The notes: generated by a model from the letters alone, not told the origin. DNA of 64,000 nucleotides from an uncultured Gammaproteobacteria bacterium (GCA_964560005.1 CAZLKB010000003.1:40712-104711); one strand, 5' to 3'; counted from the first letter of the stretch, positions 6,633 through 52,107 are shown. Numbers and translations are program-made.

Positions 6633-6737
6633 AAATGTAAAAATTAAAATGAAAAATGACAGTTAAAAATGTAAAATTAATAATTTTTAATTTTGCATTG
6701 TCATTTTACATTTTGAGATTTACATTTTACATTTTGC

Positions 6738-7334
6738 ATGCGCTATCCTGCTTCCATCCAAAACCTAATTGATCACTTTAGCAAACTGCCCACGGTCGGG
6801 CCTAAAACCGCCGAGCGGTATGTTTTTTATTTATTAAAGGCGCATCCGGAGAGCCTCCAGCAGTTCGCTCAGGCCATTGCCGAATTAAAAGAAAAAACCA
6901 CCATCTGCCGAACCTGCCTGGCAATCGCCGAAACCAACCCCTGCTCAATCTGCGCCGATCCAAGAAGAAACCGTTCGGTAATCTGCCTGGTGGCTGACAC
7001 CCGCGACCTCTTAGCCATTGAATCTACCAAGCAATTCAGCGGTCTCTACCAAGTTTTAGGCGGCGTAATCAACACGATCGAAGGCGCCGGACCGGAGCGG
7101 CTTAATCTAAAACAGCTGACCGGCAGGCTGAAACAACAACCTATTAAAGAAATTATTATGGCCTTTAATCCCGACCTGGAAGGCGAAACCACATCCCTAT
7201 ACATAGCCAAACTTTTAAAGAGCCATAAATTAAAAATCACCCGCCTGGCCAAGGGTCTGCCCATGGGCGCTGACCTGGAATACGCCGACGAAATAACTCT
7301 AAGCAACGCCTTAAAATATAGAAGCGAGATATAA
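6738..7334 (+). CDS. recR: Recombination protein RecR
   Basis: HhH motif LPTVGPKTAERYVFYLL, a C4 zinc finger (CRTCLAIAETNPCSIC) and a Toprim domain. Confidence 0.95.
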   Translation: MRYPASIQNLIDHFSKLPTVGPKTAERYVFYLLKAHPESLQQFAQAIAELKEKTTICRTCLAIAETNPCSICADPRRNRSVICLVADTRDLLAIESTKQFSGLYQVLGGVINTIEGAGPERLNLKQLTGRLKQQPIKEIIMAFNPDLEGETTSLYIAKLLKSHKLKITRLAKGLPMGADLEYADEITLSNALKYRSEI

Positions 7335-13547: not shown

Positions 13548-13655
13548 ATAAACATCAATCAATAACACCCGCCAGGGTTGTTTTTTAATAAAACTAACCT
13601 GCCTTTCACCGCTTTAAAAATCCGGGGCGCGGGAAATAAATATAACCTATCAAAT

Positions 13656-13871
13656 ATGGAAAATGAAACTAAATCCAACGGCGTAAATAAAATCATCACC
13701 TACATTAAGGCGTCAATTGAAGAGATGAAAAAGGTTACTTGGCCGACCAAGAAAGAAACCTATAATTATACCCTGCTGGTAATTTTTATCAGTATTGGCG
13801 TGGCTCTATTCTTGGGACTCCTGGATATTATTTTCACCAAGGGTCTGGAATATTTAATTATCAATAAATAG
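13656..13871 (+). CDS. secE: Preprotein translocase subunit SecE
   Basis: C-terminal EEMKKVTWPTKKETYNYTLLVIFISIGVALFLGLLD is the SecE TM signature, directly upstream of nusG. The ORF-track start at 13578 is probably an artefact; the start used here is the Met at 13656. Confidence 0.8.
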   Translation: MENETKSNGVNKIITYIKASIEEMKKVTWPTKKETYNYTLLVIFISIGVALFLGLLDIIFTKGLEYLIINK

Positions 13872-13907
13872 CCTAATTTTAATTATTATTAGCTTTGAAT
13901 TATTCAT

Positions 13908-14453
13908 ATGGCAAAACAAATATTAAATCAAGGCCGGCGCTGGTATGTGCTCCATACTTATTCGGGTTACGAAGAGAATGTTTCGCAGAATTTAAAGCAA
14001 AGGATTGAATCCATGGACATGGAAGACAAAATTTTTAATATTCTTATTCCTACGGAAAAAAAGATTAAAATAAAAAACGGCAAACGGAAAATAGTTGAAG
14101 AAAAAATTTTCCCCGGCTATGTTTTAGTGGAGATGATCGTCACCGATGATTCTTGGTATGTGGTCAGAAATACGCCGAATGTAACCGGCTTCGTCGGCAC
14201 CGGCACGGTTCCGACTCCGATCGCTGAAAATGAAATTAAAGATCTGCAAAAACGGATGGGTGTGGAAGAGCCGAAATTTAAAATTGATGTGTCAATTAAT
14301 TCGCCGGCGCGCATTATTGACGGCCCCTTTAAGAATTTAGAGGGCAAAGTTGTGGAAATTGACGAGGCTAAGGGCAAAATTAAAGTTTCAGTTTCCATGT
14401 TCGGCCGCGAAACCCCGGTGGAGCTGGATTTTTTACAAATTAAAAAGATTTAA
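13908..14453 (+). CDS. nusG: Transcription termination/antitermination factor NusG
   Basis: NGN domain (RWYVLHTYSGYEENV) and C-terminal KOW domain (FKNLEGKVVEIDEAKGKIKVSVSMFGR). Confidence 0.95.
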   Translation: MAKQILNQGRRWYVLHTYSGYEENVSQNLKQRIESMDMEDKIFNILIPTEKKIKIKNGKRKIVEEKIFPGYVLVEMIVTDDSWYVVRNTPNVTGFVGTGTVPTPIAENEIKDLQKRMGVEEPKFKIDVSINSPARIIDGPFKNLEGKVVEIDEAKGKIKVSVSMFGRETPVELDFLQIKKI

Positions 14454-14576
14454 CCCTACAAATCAACAAATCCATTACAAATATACAAATTAGGCTTCTT
14501 ATATTTGTAAATTTGTAGCAAAATTTGTAAATTTGTGGGTATATAAAGATGATATAATCACTAAACTAATTAAGGT

Positions 14577-14996
14577 ATGAAAAAAATATTAACTAAAGTG
14601 AAACTGCAAATCCCGGCCGGCCAAGCCAATCCCGCTCCTCCGGTAGGACCGGCCTTAGGCCAGCACGGCTTGAATATCTCGCAATTCTGCCAGGCATTTA
14701 ATGAAAAAACCAAGGCTAAAATGGGCGATATCACACCGGTAGAAATAACCATCTACGAAGACCGAACTTACACATTTATTTTAAAGACCCCGCCGGCCGC
14801 GGAATTAATCAAAAAATACGCTAAAATTCCTAAAGGTTCGGGCAAGCCGCTGGCCGAAAAAGTCGGTAGTATTACTAAAGCTCAACTGAAAGAAATTGCT
14901 GAAATCAAAATGCCGGACCTGAATGCGCATGATATTGAAGCGGCTATGAGAATCGTCGCCGGCACCGCACGGCAAATGGGAGTGGAGATTAAGTAG
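14577..14996 (+). CDS. rplK: 50S ribosomal protein L11
   Basis: [26 protein letters not shown] matches the bL11 signature. Confidence 0.95.
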
Positions 14997-15118
14997 TTGA
15001 AAATTAAAAAATCAAAATGTAAAATTACAGTTTAAAATGCAAAGTTTAAATTTATAAATTTTAAATTTTACATTGTCATTTTTAACTTTAATTTTTGCAT
15101 TTTACATTAATAACTAAT
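14997..15118. repeat. Family A palindromic AT-rich intergenic element (aaaatgtaaaat/gacaatg type) between rplK and rplA
   Basis: aaaatcaaaatgtaaaattacagtttaaaatgcaaag...aaattttacattgtcatttttaactttaatttttgcattttacatt has imperfect inverted symmetry. One of at least seven copies in the window. Confidence 0.7.
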
Positions 15119-15164
15119 TTGTGGAAGCTCTGAATCAAAGAGCGATATTACCACGAAATAAATT

Positions 15165-15881
15165 ATGAAAAAAGAATCAGTGACCGCAAAGGCTGCAGCG
15201 GACAAAAAAAAGCAGAACAACAAGGTGGAGACAACGGAATATGACCGAAGTAAAGCTTATCCGATCGCCGAAGCCATTGAATTGACTAAGAAGCTTTCTA
15301 AAACCAAGTTTGATGCTTCGGTGGAAGTTCACTTTAAACTGGGTATTGACATTAAAAAGGGCGAACAGCAGGTCAGAGTGGCCGTTCCCCTGCCCCACGG
15401 CACGGGTAAGACCATAAAAGTCGCCGCTTTCGTAACTCAGGCTAAAGAAAAAGAAGTGCGCGAAGCCGGTGCCGATTTAGTCGGCAGCGAAGAATTGATC
15501 GCTGAGATCAAAAAAACCGAAAAGACTAATTTTCAGGTGGCGGTGGCCGAGCCGGCTATGATGAAAAACCTGGGACAAATCGCTAAAATCCTAGGCACCC
15601 GCGGACTGATGCCTTCGCCCAAGAACGATACCGTAACTACCGACCCGGCTAAAGCTGTCCGAGAGCTTAAAAAAGGAAAAGTCAGCTTAAAGAATGACGA
15701 TACCGGAAATGTCCATGTAGCCATCGGCAAAGTCTCCTTTGACAGCCAAAAATTAATTCAAAATTTCGATGTTTTATTGGATGCCGTTAGAAAAGCCAAG
15801 CCGTCCAGCTCCAAAGGAATTTACTTAAAAAATATCACGATTTGCTCAACTATGGGACCGGGTATAAGAGTGGCGATCTAA
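15165..15881 (+). CDS. rplA: 50S ribosomal protein L1
   Basis: Full-length uL1 pattern (KFDASVEVHFKLGIDIKKGEQQVRVAVPLPHGTGK). Confidence 0.95.
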   Translation: MKKESVTAKAAADKKKQNNKVETTEYDRSKAYPIAEAIELTKKLSKTKFDASVEVHFKLGIDIKKGEQQVRVAVPLPHGTGKTIKVAAFVTQAKEKEVREAGADLVGSEELIAEIKKTEKTNFQVAVAEPAMMKNLGQIAKILGTRGLMPSPKNDTVTTDPAKAVRELKKGKVSLKNDDTGNVHVAIGKVSFDSQKLIQNFDVLLDAVRKAKPSSSKGIYLKNITICSTMGPGIRVAI

Positions 15882-15915
15882 AATATCATAAATCACAACC
15901 CGTAACCCGTAACGC

Positions 15916-15945
15916 AAAACACCAGGCTGACTCGCCTGGTGTTTT
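15916..15945 (+). terminator. Rho-independent terminator after rplA
   Basis: aaaacaccaggc-tgactcg-cctggtgtttt hairpin with a T run. Confidence 0.7.
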
Positions 15946-16030
15946 GTTTAGTCATTAAGCTACTGTTGACTTTTTAAAATAGTAGAGTTAACCTTTATAT
16001 TAAAGGATTGAACCAAGCAAAAAATAAAAA

Positions 16031-16213
16031 ATGAAAACGCCAGTTGTAAATCGAAAAAAACTGCCCGGCCCGGACGAAGAAATGACAGGAGGGGGCAAGT
16101 GGAATACCACCGGTTCAAAACCCAAGCTGGTTGAAAAGCCGAAACCGCCTGTGATCAGGCCAATGACCGGATCCACATGGAAAGTCGGAAACGGCCAAAG
16201 CCAGGAATGCTAA
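16031..16213 (+). CDS. Small basic Pro/Lys-rich hypothetical protein (60 aa)
   Basis: First of four tandem same-strand small ORFs, each starting MK, in a visibly GC-richer island. Confidence 0.3.
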   Translation: MKTPVVNRKKLPGPDEEMTGGGKWNTTGSKPKLVEKPKPPVIRPMTGSTWKVGNGQSQEC

Positions 16214-16232
16214 AAACAAAAAATGAAAAAAG

Positions 16233-16400
16233 ATAAAAAAAGAACCGACATAAGGCGGAAAAACGCCGCAACCGCTCGCGCCCGAAACGGCCGCAGGCCG
16301 CGCCATAAAGGCCTTCCGACTATCCGCGCTCTTACAACCGTCAGAGCGAAGCTAATAATTTGCGGGCAAGATATTCGCATCCTGATCGTCTGGTAGATTA
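16233..16400 (+). CDS. Small Arg-rich hypothetical protein (55 aa)
   Basis: MKKDKKRTDIRRKNAATARARNGRRPRHKGLPTIRALTTVRAKL.... Not in the ORF track (under 60 aa). Second of the tandem series. Confidence 0.25.
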
Positions 16401-16429
16401 ACAATTGTCAAAAATCGGATCAAAAAAGC

Positions 16430-16603
16430 ATGAAAAATCGTCCTTTCAAACCAATACATCTGCCAAACAAAAATCCATTGGCGCGTGAACCTAAGAAGGA
16501 CCCACGCAAAAATTCCATCACACTAAAACATCCGGAAAAACAACGCTGGGCTTTTCTAAAGAGGGACGGGAAAAGGCCTGTCGGCTTTAAACCAGCTCTC
16601 TAA
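16430..16603 (+). CDS. Small basic hypothetical protein (57 aa)
   Basis: MKNRPFKPIHLPNKNPLAREPKKDPRKNSITLKHPEKQRWAFLKRDGKRPVGFKPAL. Third of the tandem series. Confidence 0.25.
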   Translation: MKNRPFKPIHLPNKNPLAREPKKDPRKNSITLKHPEKQRWAFLKRDGKRPVGFKPAL

Positions 16604-16642
16604 ACGCGTAACATCCGGTCATAAAAACAACACCTGAAAAAT

Positions 16643-16849
16643 ATGAAAGAGAAGCATTATTCTAGAGAGGATAGAAAGCATCGCGGAGCCCATAACTGTT
16701 GGTCATGCCGCTGTGGCCTTACCAATGGGCAAATCAGTAGGGGGGAACATTACTGCGCTAATTGCAAACCAAAGGCACTGTCAACGATGATAACAGATCA
16801 AAGATTCGGCACTTCAGCGAACAACTACTTCCTCCAACCCCGCGTGTAA
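16643..16849 (+). CDS. Small zinc-ribbon protein (68 aa; CxxC...CxxC)
   Basis: CWSCRCG ... HYCANC. The ORF ends inside a strong terminator hairpin. Confidence 0.45.
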   Translation: MKEKHYSREDRKHRGAHNCWSCRCGLTNGQISRGEHYCANCKPKALSTMITDQRFGTSANNYFLQPRV

Positions 16850-16875
16850 TTCCAAGAAGCACGCGGGGATTTTTT
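16838..16875 (+). terminator. Rho-independent terminator
   Basis: ccccgcgtg-taattccaagaag-cacgcgggg followed by ttttttt. Confidence 0.75.
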
Positions 16876-16958
16876 TATCCGCCATAATTTTATGTAATCA
16901 AAAATCCGGACATTGTCAGTCCGGCTTTTTTAATTTGATTTGATTTTCCAATTGCCGT

Positions 16959-17618
16959 TTAATACTTCGCTTCGTCCAATAAAAATAAATCGTAATCTTT
17001 TTTAAACAGCCTCTGGGCGATATGAAAAATGCCGAAGGTTATAAAATAGGCCGAAGCCACATCAATTGAATAATGGTAATGAGCCAGCAGCACGCTGATT
17101 CCGGCTACGATTGATGAAGATAAAAAAACATAGCGCAAAATTTTCTGCCGCCAGAAAATTAAAGCGAACAAAAACGGCATGCCCGTATGGCCGGAAAAAA
17201 ACAAATCGGTCGGAGTGGTAAAAACGCTGATAAAACTATCCATGGCCGCTCGTTCAGGAAACGGCCCGAAATGAGTTAAGATAATAAAGAATGACCTAAT
17301 AACTATGAACAGCGCCGCGCTTTTTAAGACGAAAGGTATGACTTTGGGTTCGCGGGTAAGCAAATAAATTACAAAAATAATAAAAACCAAGGAGCCCTCA
17401 ACAAATATTATATTAGTATCTATGACCGGCAAAATATTAAGCAAGATATCGGTTACAGCGTTACTTGATTTTAAAGCGGCGTAGATAATGGCATAATAAT
17501 TGATAATAATACTGGCGGTAAAGAACAATACGCCGATTAGAACCGAAATGATAAATTGCTTTTGCGACCAATAAAATTTATGTTTAGCGATAATATGCCG
17601 CATAATACTCGGAAACAA
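16959..17618 (-). CDS. Integral membrane protein, PAP2-like phosphatase superfamily (tentative)
   Basis: Six TM helices. SGHTGMPF and HYHYSIDV resemble PAP2 motifs C2 (PSGH) and C3 (SRx5Hx3D). Confidence 0.45.
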   Translation of the reverse strand: MFPSIMRHIIAKHKFYWSQKQFIISVLIGVLFFTASIIINYYAIIYAALKSSNAVTDILLNILPVIDTNIIFVEGSLVFIIFVIYLLTREPKVIPFVLKSAALFIVIRSFFIILTHFGPFPERAAMDSFISVFTTPTDLFFSGHTGMPFLFALIFWRQKILRYVFLSSSIVAGISVLLAHYHYSIDVASAYFITFGIFHIAQRLFKKDYDLFLLDEAKY

Positions 17619-25452: not shown

Positions 25453-25971
25453 ATGGCCGACCTAAAAAATCCGCATCTCACCAGGCTTAGCTGGGATGAA
25501 ACTTTCATGAACTTGGCGCTTTTAATCGCGCAAAGAACCGCTTGCCGCTTCCACATTGTCGGCGCAGTTTTCGTTGATGATAACAATCGGATAATTTCCC
25601 TGGGCTACAACGGTCCGTCCGAAGGCGATTACCACTGCAACGAAGTCGGCTGCGCTAAAATTGACGGCAATCCGGTGACGAAAAAAATAGAACGCTGCCG
25701 CGGCGTGCACGCGGAAATTAACGGGATTATCAATTCGCAAAATACCAGCCGCCTAAAAGGCGGCGCACTTTACACCACGGTTCTCCCCTGCTACGACTGC
25801 ATGAAAGCTATAAATAACGCCGGTATTAAAGAGGTCGTCTACAAGGAAGTCTATAAGCGCATCCAGACCGGTGGAGAAAAATTTGAGGAAGAACGCGAAG
25901 TTTGGAACTTGGCGGAAAAACGCGGCATAAAAATTAGGAAGTATGAAGGAAAGGTATATTTAAAAATTTAA
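25453..25971 (+). CDS. dCMP deaminase (ComEB-like cytidine/deoxycytidylate deaminase)
   Basis: Zinc-binding HAEINGI ... PCYDCMKAI motifs. Confidence 0.85.
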   Translation: MADLKNPHLTRLSWDETFMNLALLIAQRTACRFHIVGAVFVDDNNRIISLGYNGPSEGDYHCNEVGCAKIDGNPVTKKIERCRGVHAEINGIINSQNTSRLKGGALYTTVLPCYDCMKAINNAGIKEVVYKEVYKRIQTGGEKFEEEREVWNLAEKRGIKIRKYEGKVYLKI

Positions 25972-26083
25972 AATGTAAATCTCAAAATGTAAAATAACAA
26001 TGCAAAGTGTAAAATTACTTCTTAAGACATTTTGCATTTTAAACTGTCATTTTCAATTTTGATTTTTACATTTTACATTATCT
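25962..26083. repeat. Family A palindromic AT-rich intergenic element
   Basis: aaaatgtaaatctcaaaatgtaaaataacaatgcaaagtgtaaaatt...cattttgcattttaaactgtcattttcaattttgatttttacattttacatt. Confidence 0.7.
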
Positions 26084-34383: not shown

Positions 34384-35673
34384 TTACTTAATTATTTCCC
34401 CCTCTAAACCAAAGTCTCTAGCCTTCACAATCATAACTTTAACAAATTTTCCAACTAAACCTTTTATCGATTCGGAATCTTCGACCACTGTTAATTTGCC
34501 GGTCCCGGTTCTCGCTAACCAATCGCCTGCTTTATTTTTGCCATCAATCAAAACTTCTATAGTTTTACCTAGATATTTTTTATTATTAAAAAACGCGGTT
34601 TTTTTCAATACTTCATTCAGCTCTTCTTCTCTGCGCCGTTTTTCCTGCCTTGATACATTATCCTTCAACTTGGCTGCTTCAGTTCCTGGCCTTGAGCTAT
34701 ATTGGGCCAGATAAGCCATATCAAATTTAACTTGTTTAAACAATTTTACCGAATTATTAAATTGCTTCTTGGTTTCGCCCGGAAAACCGACGATCAGATC
34801 CGTGGTTATGCTCGCGTCCGGCATAACGATTCTAATTTTTTTTATTAAGCTTATATAGTGTTCAATCGTATACTTTCTGTTCATTTTTTTAAGGACTTCA
34901 TTATCCCCGGCTTGCGCCGGCAGATGAACCTGATGGCAGACTTTCTGGCACTGCGCCATGGTTTTAATCAGTTTAGCCGACATATCCTTAGGATGACTGG
35001 TAAAAAACCTAACCCAAAAATTTCCCTTAATATTGTTAACCATGTTCAGCAGGTCGGCGAAGTCAATTTTACCCGACCGATAGCTATTTACATTCTGTGC
35101 AATTAATATAATCTCTTTATAGCCTTTGTCAACTAAATTTTTTACCTCATTTAAAATGTCGTCTGCTTTCCGATAAACTTCCCGGCCGCGCGCGTATGGC
35201 ACAACGCAATACGAGCAAAAATTATTACAGCCATTGCCGATCGGCACCAAGGCGGAAAATTTAGAGTTATATTTTGGTTTTATTGATAAATAATCATTTT
35301 TATTTTGCACATCTTTTTGAAAATTAATTTTTGAAAATTCATTGAAAATTGAAAATTGAAAATTGAAAATTTCCTTAATCTGCATCCATTCATCCACATA
35401 CTTTTCCAATCTTCTTTTAACATCTTTTCTCTCCGATAAACAACCGGTTAAAATAACTTCTGCTTTTTTGTTTTCCTTTTTAATCCTAGGTATTAAACCG
35501 TAAATTCTATTTTCAGCAGATTGCCTCACTCCGCAAGTATTAATCACAACCAAATCAGCCTGATATTTATTATCAATATATTTATAACCCTTGTTTCCCA
35601 ACAAGCCAGCCAATCTTTCGCTGTCTGATTCATTCATCTGGCAACCAAAGGTGGTGATATGATAAGTCTTCAT
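34384..35673 (-). CDS. miaB: tRNA-i6A37 methylthiotransferase MiaB (radical SAM MTTase) carrying a heptamer-repeat-encoded linker
   Basis: MTTase N-domain (ITTFGCQMNESDSERLAG), radical SAM CNNFCSYC and a TRAM C-terminus. The linker FNFQFSIFNEFSKINFQ is encoded by (AATTTTC)n at 35315-35371. Confidence 0.9.
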   Translation of the reverse strand: MKTYHITTFGCQMNESDSERLAGLLGNKGYKYIDNKYQADLVVINTCGVRQSAENRIYGLIPRIKKENKKAEVILTGCLSERKDVKRRLEKYVDEWMQIKEIFNFQFSIFNEFSKINFQKDVQNKNDYLSIKPKYNSKFSALVPIGNGCNNFCSYCVVPYARGREVYRKADDILNEVKNLVDKGYKEIILIAQNVNSYRSGKIDFADLLNMVNNIKGNFWVRFFTSHPKDMSAKLIKTMAQCQKVCHQVHLPAQAGDNEVLKKMNRKYTIEHYISLIKKIRIVMPDASITTDLIVGFPGETKKQFNNSVKLFKQVKFDMAYLAQYSSRPGTEAAKLKDNVSRQEKRRREEELNEVLKKTAFFNNKKYLGKTIEVLIDGKNKAGDWLARTGTGKLTVVEDSESIKGLVGKFVKVMIVKARDFGLEGEIIK

Positions 35674-35675
35674 AA

Positions 35676-35790
35676 AAATTAAAAATGTAAAATGTAAATC
35701 TCAAAATGACAATGTAAAATTTAAAATTATTAAATTAATAAATTTACATTTTGAACTGTCATTTTTCATTTTGATTTTTACATTTTACAT
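35676..35790. repeat. Family A palindromic AT-rich intergenic element between miaB and dnaJ
   Basis: aaaatgtaaaatgtaaatctcaaaatgacaatgtaaaatttaaaatt...tttacattttgaactgtcatttttcattttgatttttacattttacattt. Confidence 0.7.
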
Positions 35791-35794
35791 TTTT

Positions 35795-41510: not shown

Positions 41511-41660
41511 ATAATTTAAAATGTAAATCTCAAAATGTAAAATGACAGTTGAAAATGCAAAATGTCTAAATTAATAATTTTAAACTTTACATTGTCATTG
41601 CTCTGCAATGACCCCGCATCTGCGGGGTGCTAGCGGAGCTAGCATTTTACATTTTGATTT
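41511..41660. repeat. Family A palindromic element carrying an inserted GC-rich hairpin, between grpE and hsp20
   Basis: aaaatgtaaatctcaaaatgtaaaatgacagttgaaaatgcaaaatg...actttacattgtcatt plus ctctgcaatgaccccgcatctgcggggtgctagcggagctagc. Confidence 0.65.
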
Positions 41661-50937: not shown

Positions 50938-52107
50938 TCATGACTTCATCTGCTTACTAATATTCGCCAATATTCCGATAGAGGCTAGGGCTGCCAGCAT
51001 GGCCGATCCGCCGTAGCTGACCATCGGGAGCGGCACGCCGGTCATAGGCATAATATTAACCATGCCGCCGATATTTATCAAGGCTTGGATTGTGATCCAA
51101 GAAACAATGCCCACAGCTAAAATCTTGCCGAAATCGTCAGGCGCTCGTTTAGCGATAATCACGCCTCTGGAAAACAATGCCAAAAATAATAAAATTAAGC
51201 CGGTAGAAAAAATAAAACCGGTCTCCTCGCTGATAATTGGAAAAATGGCGTCGTTCTGCGCCTGCGGCAGGTAGGAAAATTTTTGTCTGGAAGCGCCCAG
51301 TCCCCGGCCCCAAAAACCGCCGGAACCGACCGCGATCAAGGATTGATTAACTTGATAACAAATTTCTTGTTTGGAAAAAGACGGATTCAGCATACATTTA
51401 AACCGGTTGGCCTGATAAGGGTAAATATTGGTCATGATGGTTAACCCGGCCAATCCCAATAAAATCAAAGCTACCAAGTGCTTGATACTGCCGCCGCCGA
51501 TAAAATAAACTATCAGCGACGCCAAGGCGATTATTGTCAATGTTCCCATATCCGGCTGAAGTATCATCAACAGAGCGATTACACCTAAAATAACCACGAA
51601 CGGGCCGATGCCTTCAGAAAAATCGGCTAATTTCTTTTTCCTGCCCTCCAGCCAGGCGGCCAGATAAATTAAAAAGGTTATTTTTACAAATTCGGACGGC
51701 TGTAAAGAATAGCCGAAAACATTTATCCAGCTTCGGGAAGTCCCCCAGGTACCGGCGAGCCCGGGGATGAAAACTAAAAGAAGCAGACCGATTGAAGCGA
51801 CCAGCATCAACAGCCCGTATTTTTGCCAAAAATGATAATCAACTTTTGAAAAAAACCAAAAGGCGCAAAGACCCAATATCAAGCCGAAGAGCTGATGTTT
51901 TACCAAGTAATAACTATCGTCATAGGTATTATAGGCTATAACCGACGAAGCGCTAGAAAGCATAATGATGCCGAAAACAATAATAACTCCGACGATAACC
52001 AGCAGTTTTTTATCCGATTCGCCGTATTTATCGCTGGAACTTAATATTCTTTTAAACCAATTAATCGCCGATGTCATATCAAAAAATGTAAAATATAAAT
52101 TTCGCAT
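50938..52107 (-). CDS. ftsW: SEDS family peptidoglycan glycosyltransferase FtsW/RodA
   Basis: Ten-TM SEDS pattern with the conserved PQAQNDAIFPIISEETGF and MPMTGVPLPMVSYGGS motifs. Position between mraY and murG. Confidence 0.85.
   Translation of the reverse strand: MRNLYFTFFDMTSAINWFKRILSSSDKYGESDKKLLVIVGVIIVFGIIMLSSASSVIAYNTYDDSYYLVKHQLFGLILGLCAFWFFSKVDYHFWQKYGLLMLVASIGLLLLVFIPGLAGTWGTSRSWINVFGYSLQPSEFVKITFLIYLAAWLEGRKKKLADFSEGIGPFVVILGVIALLMILQPDMGTLTIIALASLIVYFIGGGSIKHLVALILLGLAGLTIMTNIYPYQANRFKCMLNPSFSKQEICYQVNQSLIAVGSGGFWGRGLGASRQKFSYLPQAQNDAIFPIISEETGFIFSTGLILLFLALFSRGVIIAKRAPDDFGKILAVGIVSWITIQALINIGGMVNIMPMTGVPLPMVSYGGSAMLAALASIGILANISKQMKS

What the first reader, a model, noticed from the sequence alone, without database searches (positions are those of the whole stretch)
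16020..16880. GC-elevated island of four tandem small basic ORFs (60, 55, 57 and 68 aa) ending in a strong terminator
The region sits between the rplA terminator (15945) and a strong hairpin terminator (16838-16875), and its GC content looks clearly higher than the flanks. It holds four consecutive plus-strand ORFs, each starting MK. Two are Pro/Lys- or Arg-rich and disordered-looking. The last is a CxxC...CxxC zinc ribbon. None matches a family I recognise (not obviously L32/L33/L36/S21). The compositional shift plus the tandem array of tiny basic proteins suggests a horizontally acquired cassette, such as phage-derived nucleic-acid-binding proteins or a precursor-peptide-like set. Alternatively it may be a misread structured RNA locus.
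Basis: seen in the sequence. Interest (0 to 1): 0.65.

Follow-up and report, generated by a model that had tools for sequence, protein, structure and literature searches.

The report
Four-gene small basic protein operon
Just after the ribosomal protein L1 gene of an uncultured Falkowbacteria (CPR) bacterium sits a self-contained, unannotated transcription unit with four tiny basic protein genes; sister species keep its promoter and terminator at the same spot, but the small genes between them turn over quickly, and nothing links it to phages or known RNAs.

Summary
All start ATG-AAA and all lie in one reading frame. Shuffled sequence almost never gives such an arrangement (0 of 5000 on the + strand). 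GC is only mildly raised (0.46, against 0.42 for genes). The real compositional outlier is the excess of A over T.

The region is one transcription unit: promoter TTGACT-N17-TAACCT (15966-15994), four cistrons, and an intrinsic terminator (16838-16877). The same promoter and terminator frame 13 modules directly downstream of rplA in 10 related Falkowbacteria lineages. The body between them ranges from about 75 nt with no ORF to 880 nt here. So the locus is inherited vertically, with fast cargo turnover, and is not a foreign island.

- **ORF4:** it has one homologue, in locus L164, under clear protein-level selection (50% aa identity at 53% nt identity; synonymous sites saturated). It is a genuine Cys/His-rich small protein.
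- **ORF1-3:** they have no significant homologue. Their coding status rests on ORF statistics and start-codon context only.
- **Database searches:** no match in Rfam, Pfam, NCBIfam, PHROGs, PDB, phage or plasmid collections, or billions of proteins.

Function is unknown. I infer basic nucleic-acid- or ribosome-binding proteins. Moderately interesting.

The parts
15165..15881 (+). rplA (ribosomal protein L1), last gene of the secE-nusG-rplK-rplA row; anchor for all comparisons
   Evidence: PF00687; 90-64% identical in the relatives
15914..15953 (+). rplA intrinsic terminator (14-bp stem, loop, T-run)
   Evidence: -24.1 kcal/mol, z -6.4; inverted repeat I3
15966..15994 (+). Module promoter: -35 TTGACT (15966-15971), 17-nt spacer, -10 TAACCT (15989-15994); predicted transcription start near 16001
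   Evidence: aligned with 12 other module promoters (TTGAC and the TA of the -10 invariant); only zero-mismatch match to the module promoter pattern in the window
16001..16030 (+). A-rich 5' leader without a Shine-Dalgarno sequence (the genome as a whole lacks SD sequences)
16031..16213 (+). ORF1, 60 aa, pI 9.9, Pro/Lys/Gly-rich; orphan
   Evidence: called as a gene on Logan contigs; host-like codon score 0.225; no homologue
16223..16396 (+). ORF2, 57 aa, pI 12.0, Arg/Lys-rich with a hydrophobic tail; orphan
   Evidence: gene-like 3-base periodicity; no significant homologue
16430..16603 (+). ORF3, 57 aa, pI 11.5, Pro/Lys-rich; shares its first five residues (MKNRP), via synonymous codons, and a KHP motif with the 29-aa ORF that precedes the ORF4 homologue in L164
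   Evidence: z 2.8, weak; similarity to the MSKS family not significant (p 0.125)
16643..16849 (+). ORF4, 68 aa, pI 9.5, Cys/His-rich (H13, H17, C19, C22, C24, H36, C38, C41); genuine protein-coding gene
   Evidence: Homologue at L164 1197-1373: z 10.8, tblastn E 1.9e-9. 14 of 20 identical residues use different codons. Core pN 0.34 vs pS 0.97; third-position excess p 0.004; BLOSUM sum 86 in frame vs 19 and 3 out of frame
16838..16877 (+). Module intrinsic terminator CCCCGCGUG...CACGCGGGG + U7; overlaps the last three codons and the stop of ORF4
   Evidence: -20.1 kcal/mol, z -4.4; unique in the window; basal stem conserved in all 13 modules
16906..16924 (.). Second, bidirectional hairpin terminator, serving the convergent PAP2_C gene (16959-17618, - strand)

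Best explanation
The region is one independent transcription unit and a member of a clade-specific module family that sits directly downstream of rplA in a subgroup of Candidatus Falkowbacteria.

Anatomy (shown): a sigma-70-type promoter (15966-15994) starts an mRNA of about 880 nt. The leader is A-rich and lacks a Shine-Dalgarno sequence. Four tightly packed cistrons follow, each starting ATG-AAA. A strong intrinsic terminator (16838-16877) ends the transcript.

Inheritance (shown): the promoter and terminator are inherited vertically and conserved. The cargo between them evolves very fast and changes in number.

Coding status: ORF4 is a real small Cys/His-rich protein under purifying selection (shown). 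ORF1-3 are most likely also translated; they are young or very fast-evolving basic, disordered proteins (inferred from ORF statistics and start context only).

Function (inferred, not shown): abundant small basic proteins that bind nucleic acid or the ribosome. ORF4 would do so through a small metal-binding knuckle (H/C...CxxC).
For: Transcription unit:
- Promoter found, aligned with the other modules, and the only zero-mismatch match to the module promoter pattern in the window.
- Terminator.

Family and vertical descent:
- 13 modules in 10 lineages (window, L003, L004, L005 x2, L087, L163, L164 x3, L165, L166, L167) share promoter, position and terminator.
- Only the ends align between modules.
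- Synteny of the flanking genes is conserved.

Modules encode proteins:
- The 'MSKS...PWW...FAPRR' family occurs in 7 modules, with pairwise z up to 23.5.
- L003 vs L167: 60 codons with no indel, pN 0.38 vs pS 0.77.

ORF4 is coding.

ORF1-3:
- The arrangement gives P = 0.003 alone and <2e-4 with ORF4.
- All four start ATG-AAA, against 4 of 51 host genes.
- 90% of the 819 nt is ORF.
- GC is at coding level (0.46) rather than intergenic level (0.34).
- The A>T skew has the sign of + strand genes.

Basic, hydrophilic products.
Against: - ORF1-3 have no significant homologue anywhere, not even in sister modules.
- The region lacks the 3-base periodicity of every host gene chunk tested (chi2 6.8, against a minimum of 18.1).
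- ORF3 and ORF4 have non-host-like codon scores. ORF4 is nevertheless demonstrably coding, so these two measures are weak here.
- Two modules (L004, L163) keep the promoter and terminator with no ORF. This hints that the RNA, or transcription itself, could matter.
- There is no expression or proteomic evidence.
- The function is pure inference from composition and location.
- ORF4 zinc binding is unproven: the first CxxC is not conserved and the model has pLDDT 45.
Confidence: 0.6

Rival explanations
1. Only ORF4 is a functional gene. The 640 nt upstream (ORF1-3) is a long A-rich leader, or the decaying remains of earlier modules, and its ORFs are not functional proteins.
For: - ORF1-3 have no homologues.
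- There is no 3-base periodicity.
- ORF3 has a poor codon score.
- T-poor sequence gives long ORFs easily; the stop-count test gave P 0.095.
- A possible relic terminator at 16266-16296 (22/31 to the L005 terminator, p about 0.025) and a promoter-like site at 16331-16359 lie inside ORF2. This suggests two former modules have fused.
Against: - The ATG-ORF arrangement of ORF1-3 gives P = 0.003.
- Each ORF restarts 9-39 nt after the previous stop with ATG-AAA and an A-rich leader.
- ORF1 has a host-like codon score.
- ORF3 shares MKNRP with its syntenic L164 counterpart through synonymous codons.
Confidence: 0.25
2. A non-coding RNA gene (an A/C-rich sRNA or long ncRNA) whose conserved parts are the promoter and terminator; the ORFs are incidental.
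For: - The promoter and terminator are far better conserved than the body.
- Modules in L004 (about 75 nt) and L163 have no ORF.
- There is no codon periodicity.
Against: - No Rfam match even at E<=10.
- Local folding is no better than in ordinary genes. The whole-region z of -3.1 includes the terminator.
- ORF4 and the MSKS family show protein-level selection with saturated synonymous sites.
- ORF statistics.
Confidence: 0.06
3. A horizontally acquired or phage-derived cassette.
For: - The cargo is absent from all 160-odd related rplA loci except L164.
- GC is slightly above the flanks.
- ORF4 gives a weak PADLOC 'homing endonuclease' hit (E 0.0018, 16 bits).
Against: - The promoter and terminator are orthologous at the same locus in sister species.
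- No phage, plasmid, viral or PHROG matches.
- No integrase, tRNA or flanking repeats.
- GC is within the host gene range.
- The HEase hit does not extend when read through the stops, and the L164 homologue does not hit.
Confidence: 0.04
4. A pseudogene: one former gene of about 272 codons, now broken by four in-frame nonsense mutations. That would explain why all four ORFs share a frame.
For: - All ORFs are in one frame, with only 4 internal stops, against 13-17 in the other + frames.
- The prior chance of a shared frame is 1/27.
Against: - The read-through translation hits no family in Pfam or PADLOC beyond the short Cys/His stretch, and it has no homologue.
- Each stop is followed within 3-13 codons by ATG-AAA and an A-rich leader, which is unexpected for random nonsense mutations.
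- The L164 homologue of ORF4 is a stand-alone 58-aa ORF.
Confidence: 0.05

Closest known systems
Bacterial small-protein (sORF) operons and lineage-specific ORFan genes, as catalogued in global smORF surveys (e.g. PMC11364881, found; not read in detail)
   Same: - ORFs under 70 codons that gene callers miss. Only ORF1 was called on the Logan contigs, and the L164 homologue of ORF4 was not called.
- No family annotation.
- Own promoter and terminator.
   Different: The expression signals are conserved across species while the coding cargo is replaced, duplicated or lost. All four cistrons are in frame and extremely basic.
Small zinc-ribbon ribosomal proteins (bL33, bL32, bL36). rpmG classically sits next to secE-nusG-rplK-rplA (my own knowledge).
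   Same: ORF4 is about 60 aa and basic, has a CxxC-x15-(H)YCxxC pattern, and lies beside the L11-L1 genes.
   Different: No Pfam or NCBIfam match even at E<=10. The family is found in only two genomes and evolves far too fast for a core ribosomal protein.
LIM-type / treble-clef Cys-His zinc fingers
   Same: The best, non-significant, PDB profile hits align H-x-C...L...YCxxC of ORF4 with the second finger of LIM domains (E 0.2-0.3).
   Different: The hits are not significant. There is a single finger, and the first CxxC is not conserved in the L164 homologue.
Tandem type I toxin-antitoxin loci (ldr, ibs/sib, hok/sok; my own knowledge)
   Same: Short modules, each with its own promoter and terminator, repeated in tandem (L005 x2, L164 x3). 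They vary in copy number between close relatives and encode peptides under 70 aa.
   Different: The peptides here are hydrophilic and basic, not hydrophobic membrane toxins. No antisense RNA gene is evident. Only L164 module c carries a hydrophobic ORF.

Membership tests
Falkowbacteria rplA-downstream small-protein module (family defined here) | Located directly after the rplA terminator, on the same strand | tested here: met
   Window 15966-16877; the same position in L003, L004, L005, L087 and L163-L167
Falkowbacteria rplA-downstream small-protein module (family defined here) | Promoter TTGAC(A/T)-N16-17-TA(A/T)NNT with a shared spacer | tested here: met
   zero mismatches to the pattern and the only such site in the window
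Falkowbacteria rplA-downstream small-protein module (family defined here) | Terminator with basal stem CCCCGCG/CGCGGGG followed by a T-run | tested here: met
Falkowbacteria rplA-downstream small-protein module (family defined here) | 5' hairpin CCGAC...GTCGG at the start of the transcript | tested here: not met
   Present in most modules but absent in the window. Not essential: it is also absent in L004, L005 and L164a.
Falkowbacteria rplA-downstream small-protein module (family defined here) | Cargo homologous to the cargo of another module | tested here: met
   ORF4 matches L164a ORFb. ORF1-3 have no significant match.
MSKS...PWW...FAPRR small-protein family (the commonest module cargo) | Significant match to the family profile | tested here: not met
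   ORF3 is the best window hit, but at 3.0 bits and p 0.125 against composition-matched shuffles. ORF1, ORF2 and ORF4 score worse.
Zinc ribbon / zinc knuckle | Two conserved Cys/His pairs with suitable spacing | tested here: inconclusive
   The window has CxxC-x15-CxxC. The L164 homologue keeps H-N-C and H-Y-C-x2-C but not the first CxxC. No Pfam zinc-ribbon hit. Model pLDDT 45.
Zinc ribbon / zinc knuckle | Metal binding | not testable with these tools
   Needs purified protein
Small ribosomal proteins (L32, L33, L34, L36, S21) | Match to the family HMM | tested here: not met
   Pfam and NCBIfam at E<=10: nothing
Any Rfam RNA family | Covariance-model match | tested here: not met
   Gathering threshold: only two tRNAs, elsewhere in the window. 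At E<=10 on 15850-17000 there are only chance-level hits.
HNH / His-Me homing endonuclease | Full-length match including the catalytic motif | tested here: not met
   Only a 44-residue Cys/His stretch hits PADLOC HEase (16 bits). There is no extension on read-through and no Pfam HNH hit.
RiPP / bacteriocin precursor cluster | Adjacent modifying enzyme or C39-peptidase transporter specific to the cassette | tested here: not met
   The neighbours are PAP2_C, DUF5666 and MacB-type ABC genes on the opposite strand. They are also present in relatives that lack the cargo.
Prophage or mobile-element remnant | Similarity to phage or plasmid sequence, an integrase, or flanking repeats | tested here: not met

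The most novel reading that the evidence does not exclude
The conserved promoter-terminator pair downstream of rplA acts as a constitutively expressed 'cradle' in which small protein genes are born de novo, duplicated, fused and lost. Bodies range from 75 nt with no ORF (L004) to one ORF (L003) and to four in-frame ORFs (this window). On this reading ORF1-3 are newborn proteins caught early. That would fit their lack of homologues, lack of codon periodicity and translation-of-A/C-rich-RNA composition, combined with start signals and ORF integrity that already look selected.
Probability: 0.2. Interest if true: 0.7.

Novelty: new member of a known kind. Interest (0 to 1): 0.4.

Why it matters
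- **Annotation gap:** CPR/Patescibacteria genomes are tiny, yet full of unannotated small ORFs. Here one such set can be shown to be real: one cistron by protein-level selection, the rest by statistics.
- **Evolution:** the set sits in an unusual setting, a vertically conserved expression scaffold whose cargo turns over within a group of species that share 81-90% L1 identity. That offers a compact natural system for studying small-protein gain, duplication and loss in bacteria.
- **New families:** it flags two previously undescribed small-protein families (the ORF4 Cys/His family and the MSKS/PWW/FAPRR family) next to the ribosomal L11-L1 genes.
- **Caution:** it does not reveal a new mechanism, and function remains inferred.

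Tried and rejected
**Family and RNA searches**
- Rfam at gathering threshold and at E<=10: nothing.
- Pfam, PHROGs, NCBIfam and PADLOC on the four ORFs, on all six frames and on the read-through: nothing credible.

**Protein homologue searches**
- Word-indexed search of 5.8 billion proteins with the concatenated ORFs, and later with the ORF4 + L164 profile: nothing.
- Exhaustive phmmer of ORF4 against 1.84 billion representatives: only two junk repeat proteins.
- Metagenome and viral scans with the concatenated ORFs: nothing. Three of the six peptide patterns spanned my artificial junctions, so those scans were weaker than intended.
- Viral scan with the ORF4 profile, and phage and plasmid blastn: nothing.
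- PDB profile search: only non-significant LIM-finger hits.

**Structure**
- AlphaFold single-sequence model of ORF4: pLDDT 45, unusable, so no fold search was run.

**Relatives**
- Contigs for the closest L1 relatives (93% and 91%) were too short to reach the module.
- The L003-group contigs are identical across the module, so no population dN/dS was possible.

**Hypotheses tested and dropped**
- ORF3 as a diverged MSKS member: not significant (p 0.125).
- Relic internal terminator and promoter inside ORF2: marginal (p about 0.025 before multiple testing).
- Pseudogene of one long gene, and homing-endonuclease remnant: rejected.
- Double-glycine bacteriocin leader in ORF1: inspected by eye and a poor fit; there is no C39 transporter.

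**Measures that proved uninformative**
- Codon-usage and periodicity scores look non-genic for ORF3 and ORF4. ORF4 is nevertheless coding, so these measures are unreliable for such basic, low-complexity proteins.

Full report
**Context.** The window comes from a Candidatus Falkowbacteria (Patescibacteria/CPR) genome. The L1 protein encoded at 15165-15881 is 64-90% identical to L1 of Falkowbacteria and Parcubacteria MAGs. The exact protein is on record on a 266-kb NCBI contig and on two Logan contigs. The finding lies after the row secE-nusG-rplK-rplA (13578-15881, + strand). It lies before a convergent block on the - strand: PAP2_C (16959-17618), DUF5666 and MacB-type ABC genes.

**Observation.**
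- All four begin ATG-AAA. Only 4 of 51 host genes do.
- The products have pI 9.5-12.0 and are hydrophilic.
They are separated by 9, 33 and 39 nt.
- The rplA terminator (-24.1 kcal/mol) and the closing terminator (16838-16877, -20.1 kcal/mol) are canonical.

**Is the arrangement more than chance?** A simple count of stops per frame is not significant against dinucleotide shuffles (P = 0.095). The full arrangement is: four ATG-ORFs of at least 50 codons, 242 codons in one frame. No shuffle out of 5000 reached that on the + strand, and 1 of 5000 did on either strand. ORF1-3 alone give P = 0.003.

**Composition.** GC is 0.462, against 0.409 for the window, 0.421 for genes and 0.34 for non-genic DNA. 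That is the 92nd percentile and within the gene range, so 'GC-elevated island' overstates it. The A-over-T skew, in contrast, is the most extreme in the window.

**What surrounds it in relatives.** Flanking synteny is conserved, but the roughly 900-bp body is not.
- None of 160 related rplA loci from genomes and metagenomes holds ORF1-3.
- Reading the intergenic DNA of the closest relatives shows a conserved frame. The frame is, in order: the rplA terminator; a sigma-70-type promoter TTGAC(A/T)-N17-TAAT(A/C)T; usually a short 5' hairpin (CCGAC...GTCGG); an A-rich leader; a variable body; and a terminator with invariant basal stem CCCCGCG/CGCGGGG plus a T-run.
- I found 13 such modules in 10 lineages: window; L003; L004; L005 (two in tandem); L087; L163; L164 (three in tandem); L165; L166; L167.
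- The promoters align, with TTGAC and the -10 TA invariant.
- The window promoter TTGACT-N17-TAACCT at 15966-15994 is the only zero-mismatch match to the module pattern in 64 kb. The terminator is likewise unique in the window.
- Between modules only the two ends align. Bodies range from about 75 nt with no ORF (L004) to 880 nt here.

The locus is therefore vertically inherited with rapid cargo turnover. Nothing matches phages, plasmids, viral contigs or PHROGs. There is no tRNA, integrase or flanking repeat.

**Are the cargos proteins?** The commonest cargo is a roughly 60-aa basic protein with the pattern 'MSKS...PLPLH..PWW...F-x-FAPRR-x-G...PPP'. It occurs in L003, L167, L164b, L165 and L166, and more distantly in L005a and L087.
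- Pairwise z-scores against shuffles reach 23.5.
- L003 and L167 align over 60 codons with no indel. They share 28 identical residues, 12 of them through different codons. pN is 0.38 and pS 0.77.

So these modules encode real, fast-evolving proteins.

**ORF4.** Window ORF4 has one homologue, the second ORF of L164 module a (1197-1373).
- Significance: z 10.8; tblastn E 1.9e-9 in the module set.
- In the ungapped 32-codon core (KHRGAHNC...EHYCANCKP against KHQGKHNC...EHYCHVCLP), nucleotide identity is 53% but amino-acid identity is 50%. The two other frames give 26-29%.
- The BLOSUM62 sum is 86, against 19 and 3 in the other frames.
- pS is 0.97 (saturated) and pN 0.34. Differences pile up at third positions (22/32 against 23/64, p = 0.004).

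ORF4 is therefore a genuine protein-coding gene. Its conserved potential metal ligands are H13, H17, C19, H36, C38 and C41. The first CxxC is not conserved, so 'zinc ribbon' is plausible but unproven.

**ORF3.** ORF3 precedes ORF4 just as a 29-aa ORF precedes the L164 homologue. The two share MKNRP through synonymous codons (AAT/AAC, CGT/CGA, CCT/CCC) and a KHP motif. Overall similarity is weak (z 2.8). ORF3's resemblance to the MSKS family is explained by composition (p = 0.125).

**ORF1 and ORF2.** Neither has a significant relative.

**Against coding for ORF1-3.**
- The 819-nt region lacks 3-base periodicity. Its chi2 is 6.8, while every one of 56 host gene chunks of the same length scores at least 18.1.
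- Codon scores are host-like only for ORF1.
- ORF4 fails the same tests and is still clearly coding, so these measures are weak for such basic, low-complexity proteins.
- Two modules with no ORF keep the promoter and terminator (L004, L163). This leaves some room for an RNA-level or transcription-level role.

**RNA alternative.**
- There are no Rfam hits.
- Sliding 120-nt folding z-scores run from -2.4 to +1.0, no different from host genes (mean -0.33, sd 1.19, minimum -3.1).
- The whole-region z of -3.1 includes the terminator hairpin.

**Pseudogene alternative.** The common frame could suggest one broken gene of 272 codons. Three results argue against it. The read-through translation matches nothing. 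Each ORF restarts promptly with ATG-AAA behind an A-rich leader. The homologue of ORF4 is a stand-alone 58-aa ORF. The shared frame has a 1/27 prior and may be chance, or a trace of in-frame duplication. The start regions of ORF1 and ORF2, and a site just upstream of ORF4, share the motif TAAAAACAA.A..TGAAAAA.

**Database silence.** There are no Pfam, NCBIfam, PHROG or PDB relatives.
- A 16-bit PADLOC 'homing endonuclease' hit on the Cys/His stretch of ORF4 does not extend on read-through. The L164 homologue does not share it.
- Searches of 5.8 billion clustered proteins and 1.84 billion representatives gave nothing real. This is partly because gene callers skip these ORFs.
- AlphaFold on ORF4 alone gave pLDDT 45.

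**Conclusion.** Shown:
- It is an independent transcription unit with a four-cistron layout.
- It belongs to a conserved, vertically inherited module family downstream of rplA.
- ORF4 is under protein-level selection.
- It has no tie to a phage, a mobile element or a known RNA family.

Inferred:
- ORF1-3 are translated.
- The products are abundant, basic nucleic-acid- or ribosome-binding proteins, with a metal knuckle in ORF4.

The main rival is that only ORF4 is functional and the rest is a leader or module debris. The most novel reading still open is that this conserved expression scaffold is a cradle for de novo small-protein genes. Literature searches found no prior description.

Noticed in passing
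window 6717-6733 (+), 25965-25981 (-), 26063-26079 (+), 35684-35700 (-), 35775-35791 (+), 41513-41529 (-), 52085-52101 (-): The motif GATTTACATTTTACATT occurs at 7 sites with at most 2 mismatches, against 0.04 expected. At least three sites (6717, 26063, 35684) lie a few bases upstream of start codons (genes at 6738, 26084 and 34384-35673). It looks like a shared promoter, operator or small intergenic repeat.
   Followed up: partly
window, all gene starts: The genome is essentially free of Shine-Dalgarno sequences. Only 5 of 51 genes have any GGAG/GAGG/AGGA within 20 nt of the start, and leaders are AT-rich. In contrast, the L164 homologue of ORF4 has a perfect AGGAGG 5 nt upstream of its ATG (L164 about 1183-1188).
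   Followed up: no
window 16266-16296 and 16331-16359: Inside ORF2 there is a hairpin-forming stretch, CGCAACCGCTCGCGCCCGAAACGGCCGCAGG. It resembles the L005 module terminator (22/31 identities, p about 0.025). A promoter-like CTTACA-N17-AATAAT follows it. This may be the scar of a former module boundary, which would mean the four-ORF unit arose by fusion of two modules.
   Followed up: partly
L164 1769-2176 (module c): The third tandem module of L164 carries a hydrophobic 113-aa ORF with two predicted membrane helices. It gives a weak Phage_holin_3_6 hit (E 0.0085). Its 3' end reads through the module terminator, so module cargo is not restricted to basic proteins.
   Followed up: no
L087 3300-3600: This module body is GC-rich (0.56), and ORFs of 62-73 aa are open in all three + frames. 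One frame is a distant MSKS-family member with an insertion. There is no Rfam hit.
   Followed up: partly
rplA downstream region across loci (L006, L021, L014, L087, L093, L164, L167, L168): The junction after rplA is a synteny break point in Falkowbacteria. rplJ-rplL-rpoB do not follow rplA in any locus examined. Different lineages carry DUF5666/ABC genes, PAP2, a sigma-factor-like gene, Band_7 or dCMP deaminase there.
   Followed up: partly
window 16622-16641: A third copy of the start-region motif TAAAAACAA.A..TGAAAAA has CTG where ORF1 and ORF2 have ATG. It lies in frame, 3 codons upstream of the ORF4 ATG. This suggests a shifted start codon or a shared origin of the start regions.
   Followed up: no
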